This document shows, piece by piece, positions 24,397 to 31,477 of a DNA stretch of 64,000 nucleotides. Each line of letters opens with the position of its first letter. The first letter of the stretch is position 1. Position numbers and translations under genes: made by a program. A model generated the notes under the pieces. The model searched no databases. It saw nothing but the letters and a program-made list of their open reading frames with translations, and was not told where the DNA came from. The stretch spans positions 168,542 to 232,541 of the forward strand of contig JBMNCQ010000055.1 in the NCBI GenBank assembly GCA_049366715.1, written 5' to 3'. The DNA is from Peptococcaceae bacterium. Lineage in GTDB: Bacteria; Bacillota; Peptococcia; Peptococcales; BICA1-8.

Positions 24397-25926
24397 CTAG
24401 ATCCTTCTTCGAAAAGGAAATTGAGGATATGGTTTCCGGCTTTTCATTTCTAATTCTTTAAGGTTTTTCACAAGTGCTTTGTTTTCATCTTCTTTTTCCA
24501 TAAATTTATTTCTCAGCTGATTATTTGTGGCTTTTACTACCTCCAGGCTCTGCCTCAGCTTCAGAACTTCTTCCGTTAAATTTTGCAGTTTCTCAACTTC
24601 CTGTTGCAGCTGTTTTTTTTGGTCCTGCTCCTTTTGCAGAGCCTGCTGCAAATTGTCAATTTCCAGAGCCTGTAAAGCTTCCTTTTCTTGCAGAACATTA
24701 ACCTGGTGCGTTTTTTTACTATTTTCCTCTTCCAGCCTGCTTATTAAGCTATTTAGCCCGGCAATTTTTTCTTCCCGGGACCTGTCATTAACCCTATTCC
24801 TTGCAGAAGATTGCCCGAAATTTTTATAATATTTGATCACTTTCCGCCTTTCCCGGCTTAATGGCGGGTTGACTTCCTCCCCGGACTGCTGACCGGCAGC
24901 ATCCTTCAGCAATAAGAATACCGCCGTACTATCCGGCTCTAGCGCCGCTAAATCAATCCCCGGATATTGATCAATATCCAAAGCTAACCGTTTAGCAAAA
25001 TATTTTACCGGCATGAATTGTGTTGTTAACTGCCGGGCGGCCGCGTACTTGTGGATATACTCATTCTCCTGCCAGAAAATTTCTATTTCCGCACCGTTCA
25101 GATAAATAAGAGGTGATAAAGAGACACCTTCTTTAGATGATATGCACTGTTCTTTGAGCCAGCCGGAATTAAGCCAGACTCCTTTCGTTTTGAACTTCCG
25201 GGTATACATGACTCTGGCATTCATATGCTCCAGCCGCAGCCAGGTGATATGCAGATTACCCTCTTGGTCAAAGAGGGCCGCAGGATTAATATTGATACCT
25301 TGTGAAGATGTTATGACACTTTTTAAGCCCCACTGGCTCTCTTTACCCATCCGGTAAACTAACTGGTACTTTCCTTTCTGATAAATCTGGTAGATGAGAT
25401 AAAGGACATCTCCCTGCGTAACGGCAGCACACCCTCCCGGTCCGTTTCCCCAGCCTTTATCAATAACAAAAGAGTCCTGCCACAGCCCATCTCTTTTAAA
25501 ACAGCACCGGATCTTCCACTCTTTCGTCTGGAAATTTTCCGTAATAATGATTACATACATCTTGTCCCCACTAAAACCTATTTTTTGAAAAGTAATCTTA
25601 TCCCTTTTTTCCAGCCCGATATTAATTATTTCAGGAGAATCTTCGCCCAAAGAATGACATATGATCTGCTCCAGATGATTTTTATAACTAATATAGAAAT
25701 GATTAGCAGGACTTACCCCCATCGTAAATAAACCTGAAAAATCTTTTCTTAGCTCCCGGAAACGGCTTTCTCCAGGATAATAAATATAAAAAGAACCGTC
25801 CTCCACCTTTAGTGTCCATTCTTGCCCGAGTCCTATAATCTCCAGTTGATTAGAGCCAAAAAGACCGTAATTTTCCTCCATTTCAGCACCACCTAAATAA
25901 TTAAACTCCCATTGTATCTTATTCAA
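24397..25926 (-). CDS. hypothetical 509-aa protein: beta-rich N-terminal region plus about 130-aa C-terminal coiled coil
   Basis: C-terminus LQEKEALQALEIDNLQQALQKEQDQKKQLQQEVEKLQNLTEEVLKLRQSLE...; no enzymatic motif. Confidence 0.6.
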   Translation of the reverse strand: MNKIQWEFNYLGGAEMEENYGLFGSNQLEIIGLGQEWTLKVEDGSFYIYYPGESRFRELRKDFSGLFTMGVSPANHFYISYKNHLEQIICHSLGEDSPEIINIGLEKRDKITFQKIGFSGDKMYVIIITENFQTKEWKIRCCFKRDGLWQDSFVIDKGWGNGPGGCAAVTQGDVLYLIYQIYQKGKYQLVYRMGKESQWGLKSVITSSQGININPAALFDQEGNLHITWLRLEHMNARVMYTRKFKTKGVWLNSGWLKEQCISSKEGVSLSPLIYLNGAEIEIFWQENEYIHKYAAARQLTTQFMPVKYFAKRLALDIDQYPGIDLAALEPDSTAVFLLLKDAAGQQSGEEVNPPLSRERRKVIKYYKNFGQSSARNRVNDRSREEKIAGLNSLISRLEEENSKKTHQVNVLQEKEALQALEIDNLQQALQKEQDQKKQLQQEVEKLQNLTEEVLKLRQSLEVVKATNNQLRNKFMEKEDENKALVKNLKELEMKSRKPYPQFPFRRRI

Positions 25927-25976
25927 GCCAAACGGCCGCTATGAAAAAAATTCACTTTAATTTTCAATATAGGATA

Positions 25977-26003
25977 ACAAAAAAAAGCGATTCCCATAAG
26001 ATA
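25977..26003 (+). promoter_or_regulatory. sigmaK/E-type promoter candidate
   Basis: AC-N16-CATAAGATA, 42 nt upstream of ATG at 26045. Confidence 0.45.
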
Positions 26004-26044
26004 TAATGAGTAACCTTAATTACAGTGGAAAGGAGGAACCTCGC

Positions 26045-26194
26045 ATGGCAGAAGCTGTAGGTCAATATGGATATGGATATGGATGTAATGCATTTTGTAA
26101 TGAATTTTTCTTTGAAACATTATTAATGATTATCATTATTATGTGGTTGTTAAAATGGCTCTTTGGATTTGGTTTTGACGGAGCTTACTGTTAG
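26045..26194 (+). CDS. tiny membrane protein, family A (49 aa)
   Basis: MAEAVGQYGYGYGCNAFCNEFFFETLLMIIIIMWLLKWLFGFGFDGAYC; AAAGGAGG RBS; the track ORF 26006..26194 is an N-terminal over-extension. Confidence 0.75.
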   Translation: MAEAVGQYGYGYGCNAFCNEFFFETLLMIIIIMWLLKWLFGFGFDGAYC

Positions 26195-26373
26195 ATTTTA
26201 AAAAATCCCTCTCCTGACCATGGGGACATATCCCAACCTGTAAAATCAGGGATACTCCCTGGCCCGATGTTATCCCTGTAAGAATAGATATTCCCTGTTC
26301 TCTTGAGGAGATATGTCCCTTTTCCATGCTAAGCATTTATGCCAATTTTTTTTCGAAAGGAGGGCCAGTATTT

Positions 26374-26847
26374 ATGCCGCAAGATAGAAATAAAGATCCT
26401 AAAAACATGAGAGGCTTTGACCCCAATACAATTTACTCCCTGTTTGATTCCTTCAACAACTTGAGTAATGCCTTTAAACAACTAAACTTACCCAATATGA
26501 CTAAATTCCTTTATTTTAACCCCCCTAATCCTGCTCATAAGCCTAAAGGAGGTAAAAAATATTTTAAGCCTGCTAAGCCCACTAAACCTGCAAAACCCGG
26601 CAAACCACAAAAACCTCTGAACTTTAACGGTTTTTTGAAAGCCTTTTCCGATGGTTTAAATGCCTTAAATTTTTCGAATCCTTTTAGGCTAAAGAGACAA
26701 CCAGGTTCTTTTCCCCGTTCATCCAGAAGAATCATTGTCAAAAGGACCTTTCTGTCTAATCAATTAATTGTTGTAAAACCGCCGGGGTATACAGAAAAAG
26801 ACACTCCGGAGGAAATCATAACGGAGGAAACCATAACCGAGGAATAA
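26374..26847 (+). CDS. Lys/Pro-rich low-complexity protein (157 aa)
   Basis: Start set at MPQDRNK (AAAGGAGGG 9 nt upstream); HKPKGGKKYFKPAKPTKPAKPGKPQKP tract. Confidence 0.55.
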   Translation: MPQDRNKDPKNMRGFDPNTIYSLFDSFNNLSNAFKQLNLPNMTKFLYFNPPNPAHKPKGGKKYFKPAKPTKPAKPGKPQKPLNFNGFLKAFSDGLNALNFSNPFRLKRQPGSFPRSSRRIIVKRTFLSNQLIVVKPPGYTEKDTPEEIITEETITEE

Positions 26848-26984
26848 ACTCTGTTGAGTGTCTCCTCCAGGCCCTTTATGAACCGAATCTTGCTATTATC
26901 TTCCCTGGTCACTGTACAACACTACCGATCAGGATTAGATCCGTTTCAAAAAATAGAAGAAAGGCACCCAAATGGATGCCTTTT

Positions 26985-27335
26985 TTATTCTTCCTCCACT
27001 TTTGCCATTTCTGCTTCCGCTATTTCTTCAACTACCTCGGCTATCTCTTCTGCTGCCTCATCCATAGGTTCTACCTGTGCTTCCGGCTGATACCCCTTTT
27101 TACTTTTTTCTGCCGGTCTTACCGGTTTTCTAGGTGCAAAAATACCTGCTATTTTACTGCTTCCTTTGGCGACTATTTCTATCTGAGGTGCGAAATTTTC
27201 TATAGAGCTTAAAAGTTGATCAAAGTTATCAGCGAACATCCTTAAATTATTTGTTACTCCCTTTAGATTAGAGACAGTCCTAAGCAAGGGCTTTGTTCTA
27301 CTGAGATTTTCATAACCTTTGCCATACTGTGACAT
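26985..27335 (-). CDS. hypothetical protein with FAD-x2-D-x-LL-x-S-x-E motif and acidic tail (116 aa)
   Basis: AAAGGAGG RBS; motif region SNLKGVTNNLRMFADNFDQLLSSIENFAPQIEIV aligns with the 28125 product; 28 nt downstream of 27364..27777. Confidence 0.6.
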   Translation of the reverse strand: MSQYGKGYENLSRTKPLLRTVSNLKGVTNNLRMFADNFDQLLSSIENFAPQIEIVAKGSSKIAGIFAPRKPVRPAEKSKKGYQPEAQVEPMDEAAEEIAEVVEEIAEAEMAKVEEE

Positions 27336-27363
27336 CTTCTTCCTCCTTTCAATTCAGCAAACA

Positions 27364-27777
27364 TCAATCATAACTGAATAACCATTTTAAAAGCCAAAAA
27401 ATAATAATTTGCATGAAAAGCGCTTCAAAAAAGCAATTATTGTTACATACCCTTTCCGGAAATGCTTCATAACCTACAGCTTCATCTTCTTCCTCCAGGG
27501 TTACCGGATGATTAACTTCAACATTTTCAGCCGGTGGTAAATGAGCTCCTAAACCATAGGCTTTCACCGGTTTTTGAGGCGGAAATACATTTTTCAGAAT
27601 TCCCTTTGTTACTCCTGTAAGAAGACTTTGCCCGGACCTGGGAGTTTTGGGGAATTCTTTGCTGCTATTAACAGGATTCTTCTGCATTTCTTGCTTTGCT
27701 ATGTTTATTTTTTCCCGGGGCTTTTTATCTTGTAAACTGTTGTGCTTTTGATTCCCATAAGTATCTAACTCAGCCAT
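27364..27777 (-). CDS. 137-aa protein whose C-terminus is a family-A tiny-TM module (fusion form)
   Basis: C-terminal CNNNCFFEALFMQIIIFWLLKWLFSYD* matches stand-alone family A peptides; TAGGAGGGG RBS. Confidence 0.7.
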   Translation of the reverse strand: MAELDTYGNQKHNSLQDKKPREKINIAKQEMQKNPVNSSKEFPKTPRSGQSLLTGVTKGILKNVFPPQKPVKAYGLGAHLPPAENVEVNHPVTLEEEDEAVGYEAFPERVCNNNCFFEALFMQIIIFWLLKWLFSYD

Positions 27778-27813
27778 CCTCTGCTACCCCTCCTAAAAAA
27801 ACATTTACACTAA

Positions 27814-27841
27814 TATAATATGTAGAACATTAAGTACTTGT
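27814..27841 (-). promoter_or_regulatory. sigmaK/E-type promoter candidate
   Basis: Minus strand AC-N17-CATATTATA, 37 nt upstream of ATG at 27777. Confidence 0.45.
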
Positions 27842-28066
27842 TTGCAGAATATAGCAATTAACTCAGGGCCACTTACTTTTTTCCCGGTACTTATGAATGA
27901 TAAAAAATCTGAATTGTTACTATTTTTTTACCACTGCATGAGAAAGTAATTTTTTTAACCGGCATCTGTCTCACTTAAATATTGAGAAAACAGTACTGAT
28001 CTAAAATTTGCACTTCTTTAAAATTGCTTCCAATAAAAAATCCACTTTTATATTTTTATATTTGTC

Positions 28067-28094
28067 ACATTTTATGAATTAATTCCATAAAATA
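28067..28094 (+). promoter_or_regulatory. sigmaK/E-type promoter candidate
   Basis: AC-N17-CATAAAATA, 31 nt upstream of ATG at 28125. Confidence 0.45.
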
Positions 28095-28124
28095 AGGTAA
28101 ATCTTAAGCGAAGGAGTGTGACAG

Positions 28125-28712
28125 ATGCCCCGCTACAGAAAAATAACACCTGTAAATATTAATGAGCAAGAACGAATTCTAAGTGAAAAGTTCAATCAGA
28201 ATAGACCTAAGTACAAAAAAACAGTAAGGAGAACCCAGAGACCTAATGAAAATCCTTTATTACCTTTATACCAATTAAAAACCAAACTACAACGTTCTTT
28301 TGAAAATAGAAGCACCCAGGAAGTCGTCTTTGATACTTGTAAAAGTTTAAGAGGGATCTGCGGTCAAGTCCGGTCTTTTGCCGATGAAGTTGATAACCTC
28401 CTAGGTTCGGTAGAATCCATTGTTCCGGTTATGGAAACAGTAGTATCCAGCTATGCCCGTTCTTTAAAAAATAAAGAGCAGCCCATTTTAGAGAAAGATA
28501 AAATCCCTGCGGAGGAAACAAACAAGGCCAAAGAAGACCAAAGTACTGATAACGAAAATCCAATCCGGGAAAATACAGCTGATAAAACTTCCAAAATGCC
28601 TGCCAAAATGCCGTCGGAAATGGAAATCAAAGAGTTCCTGAACAATCCCCTGGTGGCAAGTTTACTACAAAATTTAACGCAAAAGATGATGACAAATAAA
28701 CAGCAGCAGTGA
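28125..28712 (+). CDS. hypothetical 195-aa protein sharing the FAD-x2-D-x-LL-x-S-x-E motif
   Basis: KSLRGICGQVRSFADEVDNLLGSVESIVPVMETV (14/34 identical to the 26985 product by eye); GAAGGAG RBS. Confidence 0.6.
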   Translation: MPRYRKITPVNINEQERILSEKFNQNRPKYKKTVRRTQRPNENPLLPLYQLKTKLQRSFENRSTQEVVFDTCKSLRGICGQVRSFADEVDNLLGSVESIVPVMETVVSSYARSLKNKEQPILEKDKIPAEETNKAKEDQSTDNENPIRENTADKTSKMPAKMPSEMEIKEFLNNPLVASLLQNLTQKMMTNKQQQ

Positions 28713-28833
28713 ACCGGTTCCGTCCGGTTAATCGTCTATAGCTAAGAGCAGGTAGCTCATACAACAGTCAGCCGGTGACACCAGATATTCCTTCACTGAG
28801 CGGCTGTTTTTTTTACCCTTTTTATTTTTCCAC

Positions 28834-28864
28834 AAAAAATACCCCTCGGTAAGGGGTATTTTTA
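28834..28864. terminator. bidirectional terminator
   Basis: AAAAAATACCCCT-CGGT-AAGGGGTATTTTT between convergent genes. Confidence 0.75.
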
Positions 28865-28866
28865 AG

Positions 28867-29067
28867 TTAAAAGGGTAATCCTAATTTGCTTATTAATTTT
28901 TGTGTTAATTCTTCCATTTGCTCCTTGCTTTTTATTCCACCGGCAGCTTCGATTTCTGCGATCACCTCATTTATCACCTTTCTTTTGTCTTCAGGTAAAA
29001 ACATTTCGAATTGAGCAACAATTGCTTTTAACTCCTCAATGCTTTGCGGCATTTGAAATTGATTCAT
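28867..29067 (-). CDS. hypothetical helical small protein (66 aa)
   Basis: ORF 16 nt downstream of 29084..29503; GGGAGG RBS. Confidence 0.5.
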   Translation of the reverse strand: MNQFQMPQSIEELKAIVAQFEMFLPEDKRKVINEVIAEIEAAGGIKSKEQMEELTQKLISKLGLPF

Positions 29068-29083
29068 AATTAACCTCCCGCTT

Positions 29084-29503
29084 TTATTTTATTGTCCTGC
29101 TGTATATAGGAGTATAGGTCTTTTCCTCCCGTAAAGAATTATCTACTCTTCTGGAATACAATACCGTATGCTTTGTTTCAGGTTGAGGGGCTTTTGCCTT
29201 TTTGGTTCTTTTCGGTTCCATAACCCGGGAATATAATACACTATGATTCTCTTTAGGGTCTTCGGCAATTGCTTCAATAACTTTCCTTTCCGGCAGATCT
29301 TCTTCCTTCCCAATCGTTCTGTTAAATAATACTTTTATTTCGTCAGATGTGATCGTATCTTTAACCTCTTCCTCCTCTTTGGATCTTACCGTTCCCCACG
29401 GCCTTAAAAATCCGCTGCCCTGGCTAAAGAATGCCAAAAATACAACAGCTATTAACAGAAAAATACTAAAAGATTTGTTTTCATTATCATAAAGACCAAA
29501 CAT
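29084..29503 (-). CDS. N-terminally anchored protein with three (V/I)(L/P)YSR repeats (139 aa)
   Basis: TM helix FSIFLLIAVVFLAFF; HSVLYSRVMEP..., HTVLYSRRVDN..., YTPIYSRTIK*; AAAGGAGGGAG RBS. Confidence 0.55.
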   Translation of the reverse strand: MFGLYDNENKSFSIFLLIAVVFLAFFSQGSGFLRPWGTVRSKEEEEVKDTITSDEIKVLFNRTIGKEEDLPERKVIEAIAEDPKENHSVLYSRVMEPKRTKKAKAPQPETKHTVLYSRRVDNSLREEKTYTPIYSRTIK

Positions 29504-29564
29504 TTTACTACTCCCTCCTTTTGTCCCAAAGTTTAAAAATTAATGAAAAGCTTTAATTCTGATT

Positions 29565-29591
29565 CATTTTATGCGCAAAAAAATTAAGTGT
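29565..29591 (-). promoter_or_regulatory. sigmaK/E-type promoter candidate
   Basis: Minus strand AC-N16-CATAAAATG, 62 nt upstream of ATG at 29503. Confidence 0.35.
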
Positions 29592-29706
29592 TCCTAGATC
29601 ACATGATTTTTGAATTCCAATTAATTACAATTTGCCCCTTCCTGCTTAGCACGGGAAAATAAAGTTTTACTATATTTTTTAATGCTGAGCGGTAAATTTA
29701 TTTATC

Positions 29707-29734
29707 ACCTTTATGATTTGCCCCTCATAAAATA
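29707..29734 (+). promoter_or_regulatory. sigmaK/E-type promoter candidate
   Basis: AC-N17-CATAAAATA, 32 nt upstream of ATG at 29766. Confidence 0.45.
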
Positions 29735-29765
29735 TAAGCAACGAACAGGCAAGGAGGTCTGGGAA

Positions 29766-29876
29766 ATGAATACCAACTGGCATAATCTCAACATGTATTT
29801 TTTTGAAACGATCCTGATGGTCATAATTATCTTTTGGCTTTTACGCTGGTTATTCAGCAGCAATTACACAGCCTGA
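29766..29876 (+). CDS. tiny membrane protein, family A (36 aa)
   Basis: MNTNWHNLNMYFFETILMVIIIFWLLRWLFSSNYTA; CAAGGAGG RBS; the track ORF 29682..29876 is over-extended. Confidence 0.7.
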   Translation: MNTNWHNLNMYFFETILMVIIIFWLLRWLFSSNYTA

Positions 29877-29889
29877 TCCATTCCAGTGC

Positions 29890-29919
29890 AGAGTAAGTTT
29901 TTAACTTACTCTTTTTTTT
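29890..29919 (+). terminator. rho-independent terminator
   Basis: AGAGTAAGTT-TTT-AACTTACTCT-TTTTTTT. Confidence 0.85.
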
Positions 29920-30009
29920 GGTCAATCCACCGCCAGACATTGATTCTCTTAAAGTATTATATGTATTCGGCTGTAAAAAGTTTATGACTTTTCTTGTAAA
30001 CTTAAATGC

Positions 30010-30036
30010 ACAGTTTAGAGAGTACTTCATAAGATA
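30010..30036 (+). promoter_or_regulatory. sigmaK/E-type promoter candidate
   Basis: AC-N16-CATAAGATA, 47 nt upstream of ATG at 30083. Confidence 0.45.
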
Positions 30037-30082
30037 TTACTGTAAACGATAACTATTACGCTCATGAAAGGAGGATTTTTAC

Positions 30083-30229
30083 ATGGCTGATAAAACTGCT
30101 AGCCAATTTGGTTTCTTTGGTGGGGAGTGTTTCTTTAACGAATGCTTCTTCGAAACTCTTTTAATGATAATCATAATTTACTGGCTTTTAAGGTGGTTAT
30201 TTGGTTTTAACTACTATGGTGCTGTTTAA
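30083..30229 (+). CDS. tiny membrane protein, family A (48 aa); not in ORF track
   Basis: MADKTASQFGFFGGECFFNECFFETLLMIIIIYWLLRWLFGFNYYGAV; AAAGGAGG RBS. Confidence 0.8.
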   Translation: MADKTASQFGFFGGECFFNECFFETLLMIIIIYWLLRWLFGFNYYGAV

Positions 30230-30286
30230 AAATTAAGCCGAGCACAAATGTCCCGGGAAAATATGTTCTTGAAAGGGGGCCTTTAC

Positions 30287-30406
30287 ATGGCAGACGGGTA
30301 CGGAAGTTGCTTTTTTAACGAATGTTTCTTTGAAACATTATTAATGATTATTATTATCTACTGGCTCTTAAGGTGGTTATTCGGCTTTAACGGCTTTGGT
30401 GTTTAA
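30287..30406 (+). CDS. tiny membrane protein, family A (39 aa); not in ORF track
   Basis: MADGYGSCFFNECFFETLLMIIIIYWLLRWLFGFNGFGV; AAAGGGGG RBS. Over the 26 shared codons it differs from the 30083 copy at 11 codons, all synonymous. Confidence 0.8.
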   Translation: MADGYGSCFFNECFFETLLMIIIIYWLLRWLFGFNGFGV

Positions 30407-30419
30407 GGCTTCTCAGATA

Positions 30420-30455
30420 AAGGGTAAAGATGGATTCCACCTTTACCCTTTTATT
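30420..30455 (+). terminator. rho-independent terminator
   Basis: AAGGGTAAAG-ATGGATTCCAC-CTTTACCCTT-TTATT. Confidence 0.7.
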
Positions 30456-30516
30456 AACTGGCAAATTCAAATTTTTAGGAAGTGAAATTTTACATAAGAG
30501 GGGGTTTTGATTAATA

Positions 30517-30645
30517 ATGACTGAAGAAAGCAGACAATACGGATATGGCGGCTTTCCTTTCGGGGGCTACTGGTGGATTTGGATAATAATAGGTGTATTA
30601 TTTTTCTTATTCTTCTTTGGCGGATGCGGCTTTGGTCCCTGCTAA
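30517..30645 (+). CDS. tiny membrane protein, family B-like / YjcZ-like (42 aa); not in ORF track
   Basis: MTEESRQYGYGGFPFGGYWWIWIIIGVLFFLFFFGGCGFGPC; AGAGGGGG RBS. Confidence 0.65.
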   Translation: MTEESRQYGYGGFPFGGYWWIWIIIGVLFFLFFFGGCGFGPC

Positions 30646-30685
30646 AATTTTTTTATCTAATATTAAAAATGAGAGGAGAATCATC

Positions 30686-30802
30686 ATGGCTGATAATGTT
30701 GCCGGTCAATTTGGTTTTGGCTACGGTTACCAATGGCTGGTTTGGGTGGCTATAATCGCCTTGGTCATTTACTTATTCGCATTTCCTTGCTGTGGAATAT
30801 AA
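30686..30802 (+). CDS. tiny membrane protein, family B / YjcZ-like (38 aa)
   Basis: MADNVAGQFGFGYGYQWLVWVAIIALVIYLFAFPCCGI; GAGAGGAG RBS; the track ORF 30593..30802 is over-extended. Confidence 0.75.
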   Translation: MADNVAGQFGFGYGYQWLVWVAIIALVIYLFAFPCCGI

Positions 30803-30834
30803 AAAAAAGGGCAGATAATACTGCCCTTTTTTTA
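30803..30834 (+). terminator. rho-independent terminator
   Basis: AAAAGGGCAG-ATAATA-CTGCCCTTTT-TTT. Confidence 0.85.
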
Positions 30835-30841
30835 TACATTA

Positions 30842-30869
30842 ACCGTTTATTAAAAAATATCATAGTATA
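30842..30869 (+). promoter_or_regulatory. sigmaK/E-type promoter candidate
   Basis: AC-N17-CATAGTATA, 44 nt upstream of ATG at 30913. Confidence 0.45.
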
Positions 30870-30912
30870 TATTGTAAACAAAATATAGCCACTCTGGAGA
30901 GGGGGTTAGCAT

Positions 30913-31035
30913 ATGGCTGATAATGTTGCCGGTCAATTCGGTTACGGTTTTGGCAACCAATGGCTGGTTTGGGTAGCTTTAATCGCTTTGATCATCTATG
31001 TGATCTGCTTCCCATACGGCGGGGGATACTGTTAG
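30913..31035 (+). CDS. tiny membrane protein, family B / YjcZ-like (40 aa); not in ORF track
   Basis: MADNVAGQFGYGFGNQWLVWVALIALIIYVICFPYGGGYC; GAGAGGGGG RBS. Confidence 0.8.
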   Translation: MADNVAGQFGYGFGNQWLVWVALIALIIYVICFPYGGGYC

Positions 31036-31121
31036 CCTTAATGAGAAGGGGTAGCGGTTCCAAACATGAACAACTAATACTAAGTCTTTATGAATTATCT
31101 ATCCTGAAAGGAGGTCACTAT

Positions 31122-31250
31122 ATGGCTGATAATGTTGCCGGTCAATTCGGTTACGGTTACGATTACGGTTCCCAATGGCTGGTCTGGGTAGCTTTAATCG
31201 CTTTGATCATCTATATTTTCTGCACCCCATACGGGGGCGGCTGGTGTTAA
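31122..31250 (+). CDS. tiny membrane protein, family B / YjcZ-like (42 aa)
   Basis: MADNVAGQFGYGYDYGSQWLVWVALIALIIYIFCTPYGGGWC; AAAGGAGG RBS; the track ORF 30960..31250 is over-extended. Confidence 0.8.
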   Translation: MADNVAGQFGYGYDYGSQWLVWVALIALIIYIFCTPYGGGWC

Positions 31251-31354
31251 TCTCGAGCCCAAGGGAGCATTAAATCCCTTCGGCTTAACCTTAAAAAGTT
31301 ACTACGTAATATCGGATACTGATTTATGATCTTTGGAAAGGAGGTTAATCACAT

Positions 31355-31477
31355 ATGACGGATAATGTTGCCGGTCAATTCGGTTTTGGTTATGGCAGTC
31401 AGTGGCTGATCTGGGTAGCTTTAATCGCTTTGATCATCTATATTTTCTGCACCCCATACGGCGGAGGATGCTGCTAA
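31355..31477 (+). CDS. tiny membrane protein, family B / YjcZ-like (40 aa); not in ORF track
   Basis: MTDNVAGQFGFGYGSQWLIWVALIALIIYIFCTPYGGGCC; AAAGGAGG RBS; shares a 52-nt identical run with the 31122 copy. Confidence 0.8.
   Translation: MTDNVAGQFGFGYGSQWLIWVALIALIIYIFCTPYGGGCC

What the first reader, a model, noticed from the sequence alone, without database searches (positions are those of the whole stretch)
27364..27777. Family-A tiny-TM module is also the C-terminal anchor of a 137-aa protein
The last 27 residues (CNNNCFFEALFMQIIIFWLLKWLFSYD) are a complete family-A module. It is attached to a 110-aa hydrophilic, Lys/Pro/Glu-rich N-terminal region. This suggests the module works as an autonomous membrane anchor or oligomerisation unit. 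The stand-alone peptides could then co-assemble with, or compete against, the anchored protein. The gene forms a two-gene unit with 26985..27335, with a 28-nt gap.
Basis: seen in the sequence. Interest (0 to 1): 0.6.

Follow-up and report, generated by a model that had tools for sequence, protein, structure and literature searches.

The report
Tail-anchored long form of sporulation micropeptide
The 137-residue gene is a real, conserved protein of a few uncultured spore-forming bacteria: a long floppy arm ending in the same very conserved membrane helix as a family of tiny neighbouring peptides, apparently made late in spore formation with a conserved partner gene, but nothing about its function has been tested.

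Summary
ORF 27364..27777 (-) encodes 137 aa. Its last 27 residues are a full copy of the family-A helix found in four stand-alone peptides nearby; these are the only five copies in the genome.

The fusion is not a frameshift artefact. The same architecture occurs in 5 other genomes of the same family and in further metagenome proteins of 95-187 aa: an acidic then basic/Pro-rich arm with NPLxxLxKxLKG and YGLGAxxPP motifs, then the C-terminal helix. dN/dS is 0.3-0.4 in the arm and 0.15-0.23 in the helix.

A sigma-K-type promoter (AC-N17-CATAnnnTA) lies 34-38 nt upstream of the start codon in four genera. The downstream "FAD-motif" gene is a conserved partner. Across the order, module genes and partner genes co-occur in 23 of 23 genomes and are usually adjacent.

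No Pfam or NCBIfam family matches, YjcZ included. Only one kind of N-terminal arm is ever fused to the module.

Best reading: a late mother-cell, tail-anchored membrane protein whose helix packs with the stand-alone peptides and whose arm links them to the partner or the coat. That mechanism is inferred.

The parts
27814..27843 (-). Sigma-K-type promoter: AAACAA (-35, AC at 27841-27840), 17-nt spacer, CATATTATA (-10, 27822-27814). It ends 36 nt before the ATG.
   Evidence: The same AC-N17-CATAnnnTA lies 34-38 nt upstream of the orthologous start codon in G008, G004 and G006. The motif occurs once per 32.5 kb per strand genome-wide. The genome encodes sigma-K above the TIGR02846 cut-off. Transcription itself was not tested.
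27787..27794 (-). Ribosome-binding site AGGAGGGG of the long-form gene
   Evidence: The orthologs carry AGGAGG, AGGAG or GGGGG at comparable spacing.
27364..27777 (-). CDS of the 137-aa tail-anchored long form of family A (stop codon 27364-27366)
   Evidence: Orthologs of 131-149 aa are 29-35% identical. Profile hits are listed. dN/dS is 0.29-0.35 among three close relatives.
27448..27777 (-). Residues 1-110: hydrophilic, mostly disordered arm
   Evidence: AlphaFold2 pLDDT is 44-61 with no fold apart from one short helix. Composition and charge are given. dN/dS of the arm is 0.32-0.38 in relatives.
27586..27615 (-). Residues 55-64 (GVTKGILKNV): short predicted helix matching the conserved NPLxxLxKxLKG(I) motif of the family
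   Evidence: The helix is predicted with low confidence (pLDDT about 55).
27532..27558 (-). Residues 74-82, YGLGAHLPP: the conserved YGLGAxxPP motif. The two Pro are invariant in 14 family members.
27367..27447 (-). Residues 111-137: the family-A module, with the predicted transmembrane helix at residues 114-134 (27376-27438) and a 3-residue tail SYD
   Evidence: Alignment. AlphaFold2 predicts helix 114-134 with pLDDT up to 95. Kyte-Doolittle 19-residue mean is 1.77, and 2.1-2.7 in orthologs. Variability is confined to one helix face.
27336..27363 (-). 28-nt intergenic spacer with the AAAGGAGG ribosome-binding site of the partner gene
   Evidence: Spacers are 21-34 nt in G008, G004 and G006 and 23-24 nt in L028 and L030.
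26985..27335 (-). Partner gene, 116 aa: conserved R-T-K-P-L-x-R-T-V-S-N-L-K-x-V-T-N-N-x-R-x-F-A-[DN]-x3-Q-L-L-x-S-x-E-N-F-x-P protein. Predicted as one long helix (5-61), a disordered linker and an acidic C-terminal helix.
   Evidence: The orthologs are 51-56% identical (in the mixed alignment the same rows read 52-57%) and always sit directly downstream of a module-bearing gene. AlphaFold2 result. No Pfam, NCBIfam or PDB match.
26960..26983 (-). Intrinsic terminator hairpin followed by a T-run, closing the two-gene operon
26045..26194 (+). Stand-alone family-A peptide, 49 aa, with a sigma-K-type motif ending at 26003
29766..29876 (+). Stand-alone family-A peptide, 36 aa, with a sigma-K-type motif ending at 29734
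30083..30229 (+). Stand-alone family-A peptide, 48 aa, with a sigma-K-type motif ending at 30036
30287..30406 (+). Stand-alone family-A peptide, 39 aa. It probably shares the transcript of 30083-30229, since it has no motif of its own.

Best explanation
Gene 27364..27777 is the long, tail-anchored member of an unnamed family of sporulation-type one-helix membrane peptides (family A) in an uncultured family of Peptococcales.

Shown:
- It is a real, conserved, selected gene.
- Its C-terminal helix is homologous to the stand-alone peptides.
- All long forms share one homologous N-terminal arm.
- It is followed by a conserved partner gene and a terminator.
- A sigma-K-type promoter motif is conserved in front of it.

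Inferred:
- The two-gene operon is transcribed late in the mother cell.
- The helix inserts post-translationally as a tail anchor, probably into the outer forespore membrane or the mother-cell membrane. About 110 disordered residues stay on the mother-cell cytoplasmic side.
- The helix packs side by side with the stand-alone family-A peptides made at the same time. The strictly conserved faces, including the buried Glu and Lys/Arg, would form the contact.
- The arm, through its NPLxxLxKxLKG and YGLGAxxPP motifs, ties that peptide assembly to soluble spore-envelope components. The first candidate is the long-helix partner protein encoded 28 nt downstream.

My confidence is about 0.9 for the descriptive part and about 0.3-0.4 for the co-assembly and tether mechanism.
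For: - Homology of the tail to the peptides.
- The same full-length architecture, open and without stops, occurs in G003, G004, G006, G007 and G008. Four are named MAGs: Clostridiaceae bacterium BRH_c20a, Peptococcales SBF912SR1HQ0049, Clostridia AS01afH2WH_13 and Bacillota Betzabe_MAG005. It also occurs in metagenome proteins P0007, P0010-P0013, P0019 and P0024-P0027.
- Purifying selection acts on both parts: dN/dS 0.32-0.38 in the arm and 0.15-0.23 in the helix.
- Tail-anchor features: a single hydrophobic segment at the extreme C-terminus (KD19 1.8-2.7) with a 3-10-residue tail. The membrane-proximal half of the arm is basic in most orthologs, +6 to +15. AlphaFold2 gives a confident helix 114-134 and a disordered arm.
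- Helix variability is restricted to positions 1, 4, 5, 8, 12 and 16, which form one face (permutation p = 0.016). F2, W17 and F19 are invariant, and E3, I9 and L18 nearly so, across 27 fused and free sequences.
- The promoter AC-N17-CATAnnnTA is conserved 34-38 nt upstream of the start codon in 4 genera. The same motif precedes three stand-alone copies and gene 28125.
- The motif is enriched: 9 sites in the 5-kb island and 18 in the window, against a genome rate of 1 per 32.5 kb per strand.
- sigK is present in the genome, and a GerA/GerAC/spore-permease operon lies 5 kb away.
- B. subtilis yjcZ, the closest known kind of gene, belongs to the sigma-K regulon (PMC517825).
- Partner linkage: the partner lies directly downstream in G008, G004, G006, L028 and L030. 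In the sister family f3, the order is family-A peptide, then partner, then a second family-A peptide. Module and partner are found in the same 23 genomes of the 54 in the order.
Against: - No expression, localisation or interaction data exist. All carriers are uncultured MAGs.
- The promoter assignment rests on a motif taken from Bacillus.
- The window's own copy is atypical. Its juxtamembrane segment is acidic (net -4) rather than basic. The helix carries A4, F6 and Q8, and the tail lacks the usual Gly-Phe.
- The single Lys/Arg sits at the C-terminal end of the helix. By the positive-inside rule alone this would favour the opposite orientation for the free peptides.
- The helix-face test uses related, non-independent sequences.
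- In G007 the long form is not next to the partner, which instead sits beside a free peptide on another contig. The long form is therefore not the partner's obligatory neighbour.
- Reads for this assembly could not be checked.
Confidence: 0.5

Rival explanations
1. Artefact: a sequencing or assembly frameshift joined an upstream ~100-aa gene to an ordinary stand-alone family-A peptide gene.
For: Just before the module the - strand reads ctGGAGGAagaagATGaAGCTGTAGGT. This is a GGAGG-N6-ATG one base out of frame, followed by 12 nt identical to the 5' end of the stand-alone gene 26045. The assembly is an 85%-complete, 108-contig draft. Reads could not be inspected.
Against: - The same uninterrupted architecture is present in at least 10 independent assemblies, with a homologous arm.
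- The closest relative, P0012 (40% identity), reads through the same junction.
- The GGAGGAAGAAGATGAA stretch encodes LEEEDE, so acidic GAA/GAG codons mimic a ribosome-binding site.
- Apart from that 12-nt run, the aligned DNA shows no conversion tract.
- There is no in-frame start codon between residue 31 and the module.
Confidence: 0.02
2. Passive anchor: the helix only fixes the arm to a membrane. Its likeness to the free peptides reflects common descent, not a present-day interaction.
For: A C-terminal transmembrane helix is enough to anchor a protein. No interaction data exist. In G007 the long form and the partner are unlinked.
Against: - Anchors normally keep hydrophobicity, not sequence. 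Here 13 of 19 helix positions are invariant or nearly invariant across two bacterial families, in both fused and free forms, including a membrane-embedded Glu and Lys/Arg. Variation is limited to one face.
- dN/dS of the helix is half that of the arm.
- All 6 genomes with a long form also keep free copies.
Confidence: 0.2
3. Not a lipid-embedded helix: the module is a hydrophobic self-assembly core buried in a proteinaceous spore layer (coat or exosporium). The flanks are cross-linked through Cys and Tyr.
For: The free peptides have Gly/Tyr/Cys-rich flanks: GQYGYGYGC in the window, and CGCGCGCNNGC-type tails in the sister family. These resemble cross-linkable coat proteins. The island has no recognisable membrane-insertion or enzymatic genes. 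Glycosyltransferase genes flank the operon in L028 and L030.
Against: The hydropathy (KD19 about 2) and the 19-21-residue length fit a membrane span. The one-face variability pattern is typical of helix bundles with a lipid-exposed stripe. The long form itself has no Gly/Tyr-rich flanks, and a Cys pair only in this genome.
Confidence: 0.15
4. Holin/antiholin-like timing device: the free peptides oligomerise into membrane lesions that help late mother-cell lysis or export. The long form is a dominant-negative or delaying paralog.
For: Sigma-K-type timing coincides with mother-cell lysis. The peptides are small one-helix proteins with conserved charged residues inside the helix. There is a longer paralog with an N-terminal extension, as in phage holin/antiholin pairs (my own knowledge).
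Against: The tail after the helix is 3-10 mostly aromatic, uncharged residues, not the charged C-terminal tail typical of holins. No cell-wall hydrolase was seen among the adjacent genes scanned. The conserved pairing is with a long-helix soluble protein. No toxicity data exist.
Confidence: 0.05

Closest known systems
YjcZ-family tiny sporulation proteins of Bacillaceae (NCBIfam TIGR01732, Pfam PF09680)
   Same: These are multi-copy genes for peptides under 60 aa with one very hydrophobic helix and Gly-rich flanks. B. subtilis yjcZ is assigned to the sigma-K regulon (PMC517825). The stand-alone family-A peptides are the same kind of gene.
   Different: There is no sequence relationship. No HMM hit appears even at E up to 5. 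No long, tail-anchored YjcZ paralog and no conserved partner gene are known to me. The family-A helix carries an invariant Glu and a Lys/Arg plus two Trp.
Tail-anchored membrane proteins (an operational class: a single transmembrane helix at the extreme C-terminus, with the N-terminal domain in the cytoplasm)
   Same: The protein has one hydrophobic segment, ending 3-10 residues before the C-terminus. It has no signal peptide or second hydrophobic segment, and the whole hydrophilic part lies N-terminal to the helix.
   Different: This is a topological class, not a homologous family. Insertion route and orientation are untested. The anchor here is itself a conserved, multi-copy peptide family.
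SpoVM-type small anchoring peptides of the spore coat basement layer (my own knowledge)
   Same: A very small mother-cell peptide marks the forespore surface and recruits a soluble morphogenetic protein. This is analogous to the proposed helix-plus-partner relationship.
   Different: SpoVM is a 26-aa amphipathic, sigma-E-dependent helix lying in the membrane surface. Family A is a fully hydrophobic span with sigma-K-type promoters. No similarity was detected or claimed.
Pfam DUF6954 (PF22268) and DUF997 (PF06196)
   Same: These are the only library models that touched a family-A peptide, over an 18-24-residue hydrophobic stretch.
   Different: Scores are 15.5 and 16.1 bits against cut-offs of 27 and 26.3. 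The hits are hydrophobic-helix noise, not membership.

Membership tests
YjcZ family sporulation protein (TIGR01732 / PF09680) | Match to the family HMM at or above the curated cut-off | tested here: not met
   hmmscan of the long form, its four orthologs and six family-A peptides against Pfam-A and NCBIfam at E up to 1-5 returned no YjcZ model.
YjcZ family sporulation protein (TIGR01732 / PF09680) | Peptide under about 60 aa consisting of one hydrophobic helix with short Gly-rich flanks | tested here: not met
   The stand-alone copies (36-49 aa) fit this description, but the gene under study is 137 aa with a 110-residue hydrophilic arm.
Tail-anchored membrane protein (topological class) | A single hydrophobic span of about 19-21 residues within about 30 residues of the C-terminus, and no other hydrophobic segment or signal peptide | tested here: met
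   KD19 maximum is 1.77 at residues 116-134, with the 3-residue tail SYD. The best window elsewhere scores 0.34. Orthologs score 2.1-2.7 with 6-10-residue tails. AlphaFold2 predicts helix 114-134.
Tail-anchored membrane protein (topological class) | Post-translational insertion with the N-terminus in the cytoplasm | not testable with these tools
   Only indirect support is available. The juxtamembrane half of the arm is basic in most orthologs but acidic in the window copy.
Sigma-K (late mother-cell) regulon | Promoter matching AC, 16-17 nt, CATAnnnTA at a suitable distance from the start codon | tested here: met
   AAACAA-N-CATATTATA ends 36 nt before the ATG. It is conserved in G008, G004 and G006 at 34-38 nt. 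The genome background is 1 site per 32.5 kb per strand. sigK is present.
Sigma-K (late mother-cell) regulon | Transcription dependent on sigma-K during sporulation | not testable with these tools
Family A (unnamed; defined here by the FFETLLMxIIIxWLL[KR]WLF helix) | Alignment of the helix with conservation of F2, E3, M7, I9-I11, W13, L14, L15, W17, L18 and F19 | tested here: met
   The window long form keeps all of these (FFEALFMQIIIFWLLKWLF). The profile search recovers free and fused members together.
Phage-type holins | Hydrophilic, highly charged C-terminal tail after the last transmembrane helix, and a neighbouring cell-wall hydrolase gene | tested here: not met
   The tails are 3-10 residues, mostly aromatic or Gly. 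The neighbouring genes scanned have no hydrolase domain. Lytic activity itself was not tested.

The most novel reading that the evidence does not exclude
The family-A helix, the free micropeptides, the tail-anchored long form and the long-helix partner together form a previously unseen membrane-embedded scaffold of the spore envelope in Peptococcales. Micropeptides would oligomerise in the outer forespore membrane through Glu and Lys/Arg-bearing helices. One paralog, which has grown a 100-residue disordered arm, would act as the stoichiometric adaptor, or as an inhibitory cap, coupling that oligomer to coat assembly or to mother-cell lysis timing. This would be a bacterial case of a micropeptide family regulated by an anchored paralog.
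Probability: 0.12. Interest if true: 0.7.

Novelty: new variant of a known kind. Interest (0 to 1): 0.42.

Why it matters
Tiny sporulation membrane peptides such as YjcZ and its relatives are abundant, multi-copy and functionally unexplained.

This locus offers three handles that such peptides usually lack:
- a long paralog with a taggable cytoplasmic arm carrying two conserved short motifs;
- a strictly co-occurring, adjacent soluble partner;
- a helix whose conserved and variable faces predict the contact surface.

Together these make a specific interaction model directly testable by two-hybrid assays, cross-linking or heterologous expression in a laboratory spore-former.

The result also shows that a module-on-a-bigger-protein pattern seen in raw sequence can be a true ancient gene rather than an assembly error. 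It further defines three unnamed protein families for annotation: the family-A peptides, the long form and the partner.

The impact is limited because all carriers are uncultured and the family is rare. The profile found only 19 representatives at E up to 0.001 among 1.84 billion.

Tried and rejected
- Frameshift or fossil-start idea. I noticed an out-of-frame GGAGG-N6-ATG and a 12-nt identity to the 5' end of stand-alone gene 26045 and considered a recent ORF fusion or gene conversion. I rejected it as the main reading because the fusion is ancient, the DNA alignment shows no conversion tract, and the stretch encodes an acidic run that mimics a ribosome-binding site.
- Different N-terminal domains on the module. 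An exhaustive profile search found none. P0018 (110 aa) is an over-extended call of a free peptide in G007.
- Library searches found nothing above cut-off: Pfam and NCBIfam for all island proteins, and PDB sequences for the partner.
- Homology between the arm and the partner. hhalign aligns only the R-x-[NK]-P-L..L..LKG stretch, with E 0.028 and probability 1.8%, which is not significant.
- AlphaFold2 on both proteins gave only isolated helices, so I ran no fold searches, since single helices give meaningless matches.
- Literature searches ('YjcZ sporulation'; 'tail-anchored sporulation mother cell') found nothing on such a protein.
- A module phylogeny to test single versus repeated fusion was not attempted. 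With 19-27 informative columns, pairwise identities (14-16 of 19) do not discriminate. Single origin rests on the homology of the arm.

Full report
**Observation.** ORF 27364..27777 on the - strand is open for 137 codons from an ATG preceded by AGGAGGGG. Its last 27 residues, CNNNCFFEALFMQIIIFWLLKWLFSYD, align through the core without gaps with four small ORFs nearby: 26045-26194, 29766-29876, 30083-30229 and 30287-30406. The invariant residues are F,F,E,M,I,I,I,W,L,L,W,L,F. A six-frame scan of the whole 4.15-Mb, 108-contig assembly finds exactly these five copies, all within 4.4 kb. The remaining 110-115 residues are hydrophilic (15 K+R, 15 D+E, 11 P) and contain no second hydrophobic segment. 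The 28-nt spacer to 26985..27335 holds AAAGGAGG, and a hairpin with a T-run terminator follows that second gene.

**Is the fusion real?** The single protein finds only itself among 5.8 billion clustered proteins. Six-frame searches of related genomes reveal the same architecture, uninterrupted, in four other genera of the same family (G004, G006, G007, G008). A profile search adds a fifth, G003. Four of these are named MAGs: Clostridiaceae bacterium BRH_c20a, Peptococcales SBF912SR1HQ0049, Clostridia AS01afH2WH_13 and Bacillota Betzabe_MAG005.

The orthologs are 131-149 aa and 29-35% identical to the window protein. They share an N-terminal M-[AEPS]-E start, an NPLxxLxKxLKG(I) motif, a YGLGAxxPP motif with invariant Pro-Pro, and the C-terminal helix. 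An exhaustive HMMER scan of 1.84 billion cluster representatives returned 19 hits at E up to 0.001. Eleven are long forms of 95-187 aa, all with the same arm. One, P0018, is an over-extended call of a free peptide. The other seven are free peptides. The closest relative of the window protein, P0012, is 40% identical and shares the unusual Gln in the helix. It reads straight through the junction.

Among three close relatives, dN/dS is 0.32-0.38 in the arm and 0.15-0.23 in the helix. An artificial frameshift fusion is therefore excluded for the family and is very unlikely for this genome.

One curiosity remains. Just before the module the DNA reads GGAGGAagaagATGaAGCTGTAGGT. This is an out-of-frame RBS-plus-ATG look-alike, followed by 12 nt identical to the 5' end of stand-alone gene 26045. 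Because the stretch encodes LEEEDEAVG and the aligned DNA shows no conversion tract, I treat it as coincidence or a very old trace.

**Context and regulation.** None of the island's proteins matches Pfam or NCBIfam. The island lies beside a GerA/GerAC/spore-permease operon and a STAS gene, and the genome encodes sigma-K above the TIGR02846 cut-off. A sigma-K-type promoter, AAACAA-N-CATATTATA (that is, AC-N17-CATAnnnTA), ends 36 nt before the ATG. The equivalent motif sits 34-38 nt upstream of the orthologous start codon in G008, G004 and G006, in otherwise diverged spacers.

The motif occurs once per 32.5 kb per strand in the genome. It occurs 18 times in this window and 9 times in the 5-kb island, including in front of three free family-A genes and gene 28125. 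In B. subtilis the comparable tiny gene yjcZ belongs to the sigma-K regulon, and the authors argue that sigma recognition is conserved among endospore formers (PMC517825). Late mother-cell transcription is thus a well-supported inference, but it is not shown.

**The partner.** The downstream 116-aa protein is the best-conserved gene of the unit. Its orthologs are 51-56% identical, and its first 60 residues include long identical runs such as RTKPL-x-RTVSNL and VTNN. AlphaFold2 models one long helix (5-61, pLDDT 75-88), a disordered linker and an acidic C-terminal helix. It lies directly downstream of the long form in G008, G004, G006 and in two metagenome contigs.

In the sister family f3 there is no long form. 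Instead the order is a 66-73-aa Cys/Gly-rich family-A peptide, then a 69-76-aa partner homolog, then a 33-37-aa family-A peptide, then a Cys-rich family-B-like peptide. Of the 54 genomes in the order, the module is found in 23 and the partner in those same 23. One further genome has only weak hits to the 195-aa paralog type. These genomes are kin and the genes are adjacent, so the count is not a statistical test. Still, 'module-bearing gene then partner gene' is clearly the conserved unit. The f1 long form occupies the position of the f3 long peptide. In G007 the partner sits beside a free peptide on another contig, while the long form follows a free peptide and precedes a homolog of the Lys/Pro-rich gene 26326-26847.

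**What the protein looks like.**
- AlphaFold2 with 9 sequences gives a confident helix at 114-134 (pLDDT up to 95), a weak short helix at 55-64 and disorder elsewhere.
- Hydropathy of the helix (KD19 1.8-2.7) and tails of 3-10 residues fit a tail anchor.
- In most orthologs the distal half of the arm is acidic and the membrane-proximal half is basic (+6 to +15), consistent with a cytoplasmic arm. The window copy is the exception, at -4.
- Across 27 fused and free helices, variability concentrates at positions 1, 4, 5, 8, 12 and 16, which form one face (moment ratio 0.37, permutation p = 0.016). F2, W17 and F19 are invariant, and E3, I9 and L18 nearly so. That pattern fits a helix packed against other helices with a narrow lipid-facing stripe, not a passive anchor. 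The sequences are related, however, so the p-value is only indicative.

**Mechanism proposed.** A late mother-cell operon would make a tail-anchored protein and a long-helix soluble protein. The anchor helix would join oligomers of the co-expressed free family-A peptides in a spore-associated membrane. The disordered arm and its two short motifs would link this assembly to the partner or to other envelope proteins. The gene's reality, homology, synteny and promoter motif are shown. Timing, membrane insertion, co-assembly and tethering are inferred.

The rivals are listed here with the confidence I give each:
- a purely passive anchor (0.2);
- a non-lipid hydrophobic core of a cross-linked coat layer (0.15);
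- a holin/antiholin-like lysis timer (0.05);
- an assembly artefact (0.02).

**Comparison with known families.** In kind, the free peptides resemble the YjcZ tiny sporulation proteins, but no YjcZ model or any other model matches. The long form meets the operational definition of a tail-anchored protein. I found nothing in the literature on a sporulation micropeptide family with an anchored long paralog and a fixed partner gene. I class it as a new variant of a known kind, namely small late-sporulation membrane proteins. It belongs to unnamed families that are rare and so far confined to uncultured Peptococcales-type genomes.

**Earlier scan notes.** Notes on this same window had already flagged the island, family A, the family-B array and the FAD-motif pair. 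A sequence look-up found no look-alike on other DNA.

Noticed in passing
L008-L012 (e.g. L009:1408-2231; L012:1411-2321): The sister family f3 has a compact four-gene row: a 66-73-aa Cys/Gly-rich family-A peptide with the helix in the middle, a 69-76-aa FAD-motif partner, a 33-37-aa YYYFE(N/S)-type family-A peptide, and a 70-74-aa Cys-rich family-B-like peptide. L010 and L012 have a sigma-K-like motif upstream.
   Followed up: partly
window 27470-27500 (-): An out-of-frame GGAGGA-N5-ATG lies immediately before the module (ATG AAG CTG TAG), followed by 12 nt (GAAGCTGTAGGT) identical to the 5' end of stand-alone gene 26045. It is either chance, because an acidic codon run mimics a ribosome-binding site, or an old trace of conversion or fusion.
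   Followed up: partly
window 25900-31000, both strands: The motif AC-N16-17-CATAnnnTA occurs 9 times in about 5 kb and 18 times in the 64-kb window. The genome holds 255 sites (1 per 32.5 kb per strand), so about 4 are expected in the window. The window appears to be a hot spot of late mother-cell promoters.
   Followed up: partly
window 30083-30229 vs 30517-31477; L013:14708-16047: Family-A and family-B peptides share the same N-terminal leader type (MAD-x-[VL]-AGQYGG(G)) and a G-F/G-x-C tail, although their helices are unrelated. Small cross-family BLAST hits come from these flanks.
   Followed up: no
window 27586-27680 (-) and 27240-27300 (-): The conserved arm motif R-x-N-P-L-x2-L-x-K-x-L-K-G-I of the long form resembles S-R-T-K-P-L-x-R-T-V-S-N-L-K-G-V at the start of the partner's helix. 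hhalign picks exactly this stretch, but only at E 0.028 and probability 1.8%.
   Followed up: partly
L028:122-10444, L030:214-4835: In metagenome contigs carrying close relatives, the operon is flanked by a Peptidase_C11 (clostripain-type) gene, several family-2 glycosyltransferases and an NTP-transferase. This hints at a spore-surface glycan neighbourhood.
   Followed up: no
window 26006-26194 (+) and 29682-29876 (+): The mechanical ORFs are over-extended. Ribosome-binding sites and alignment place the true starts at 26045 and 29766.
   Followed up: yes
window 26326-26847 (+); L016:6708-7394: The Lys/Pro-rich 173-aa protein has a 228-aa homolog directly downstream of the long form in G007 (29% identity over 202 aa). 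It may be another component of the same module.
   Followed up: no
G001:C74:31958-32774: In one family-f1 genome without a full-length long form, two partner-like segments lie in a single 176-aa open frame between two free family-A peptides. This may be a duplicated or fused partner.
   Followed up: no
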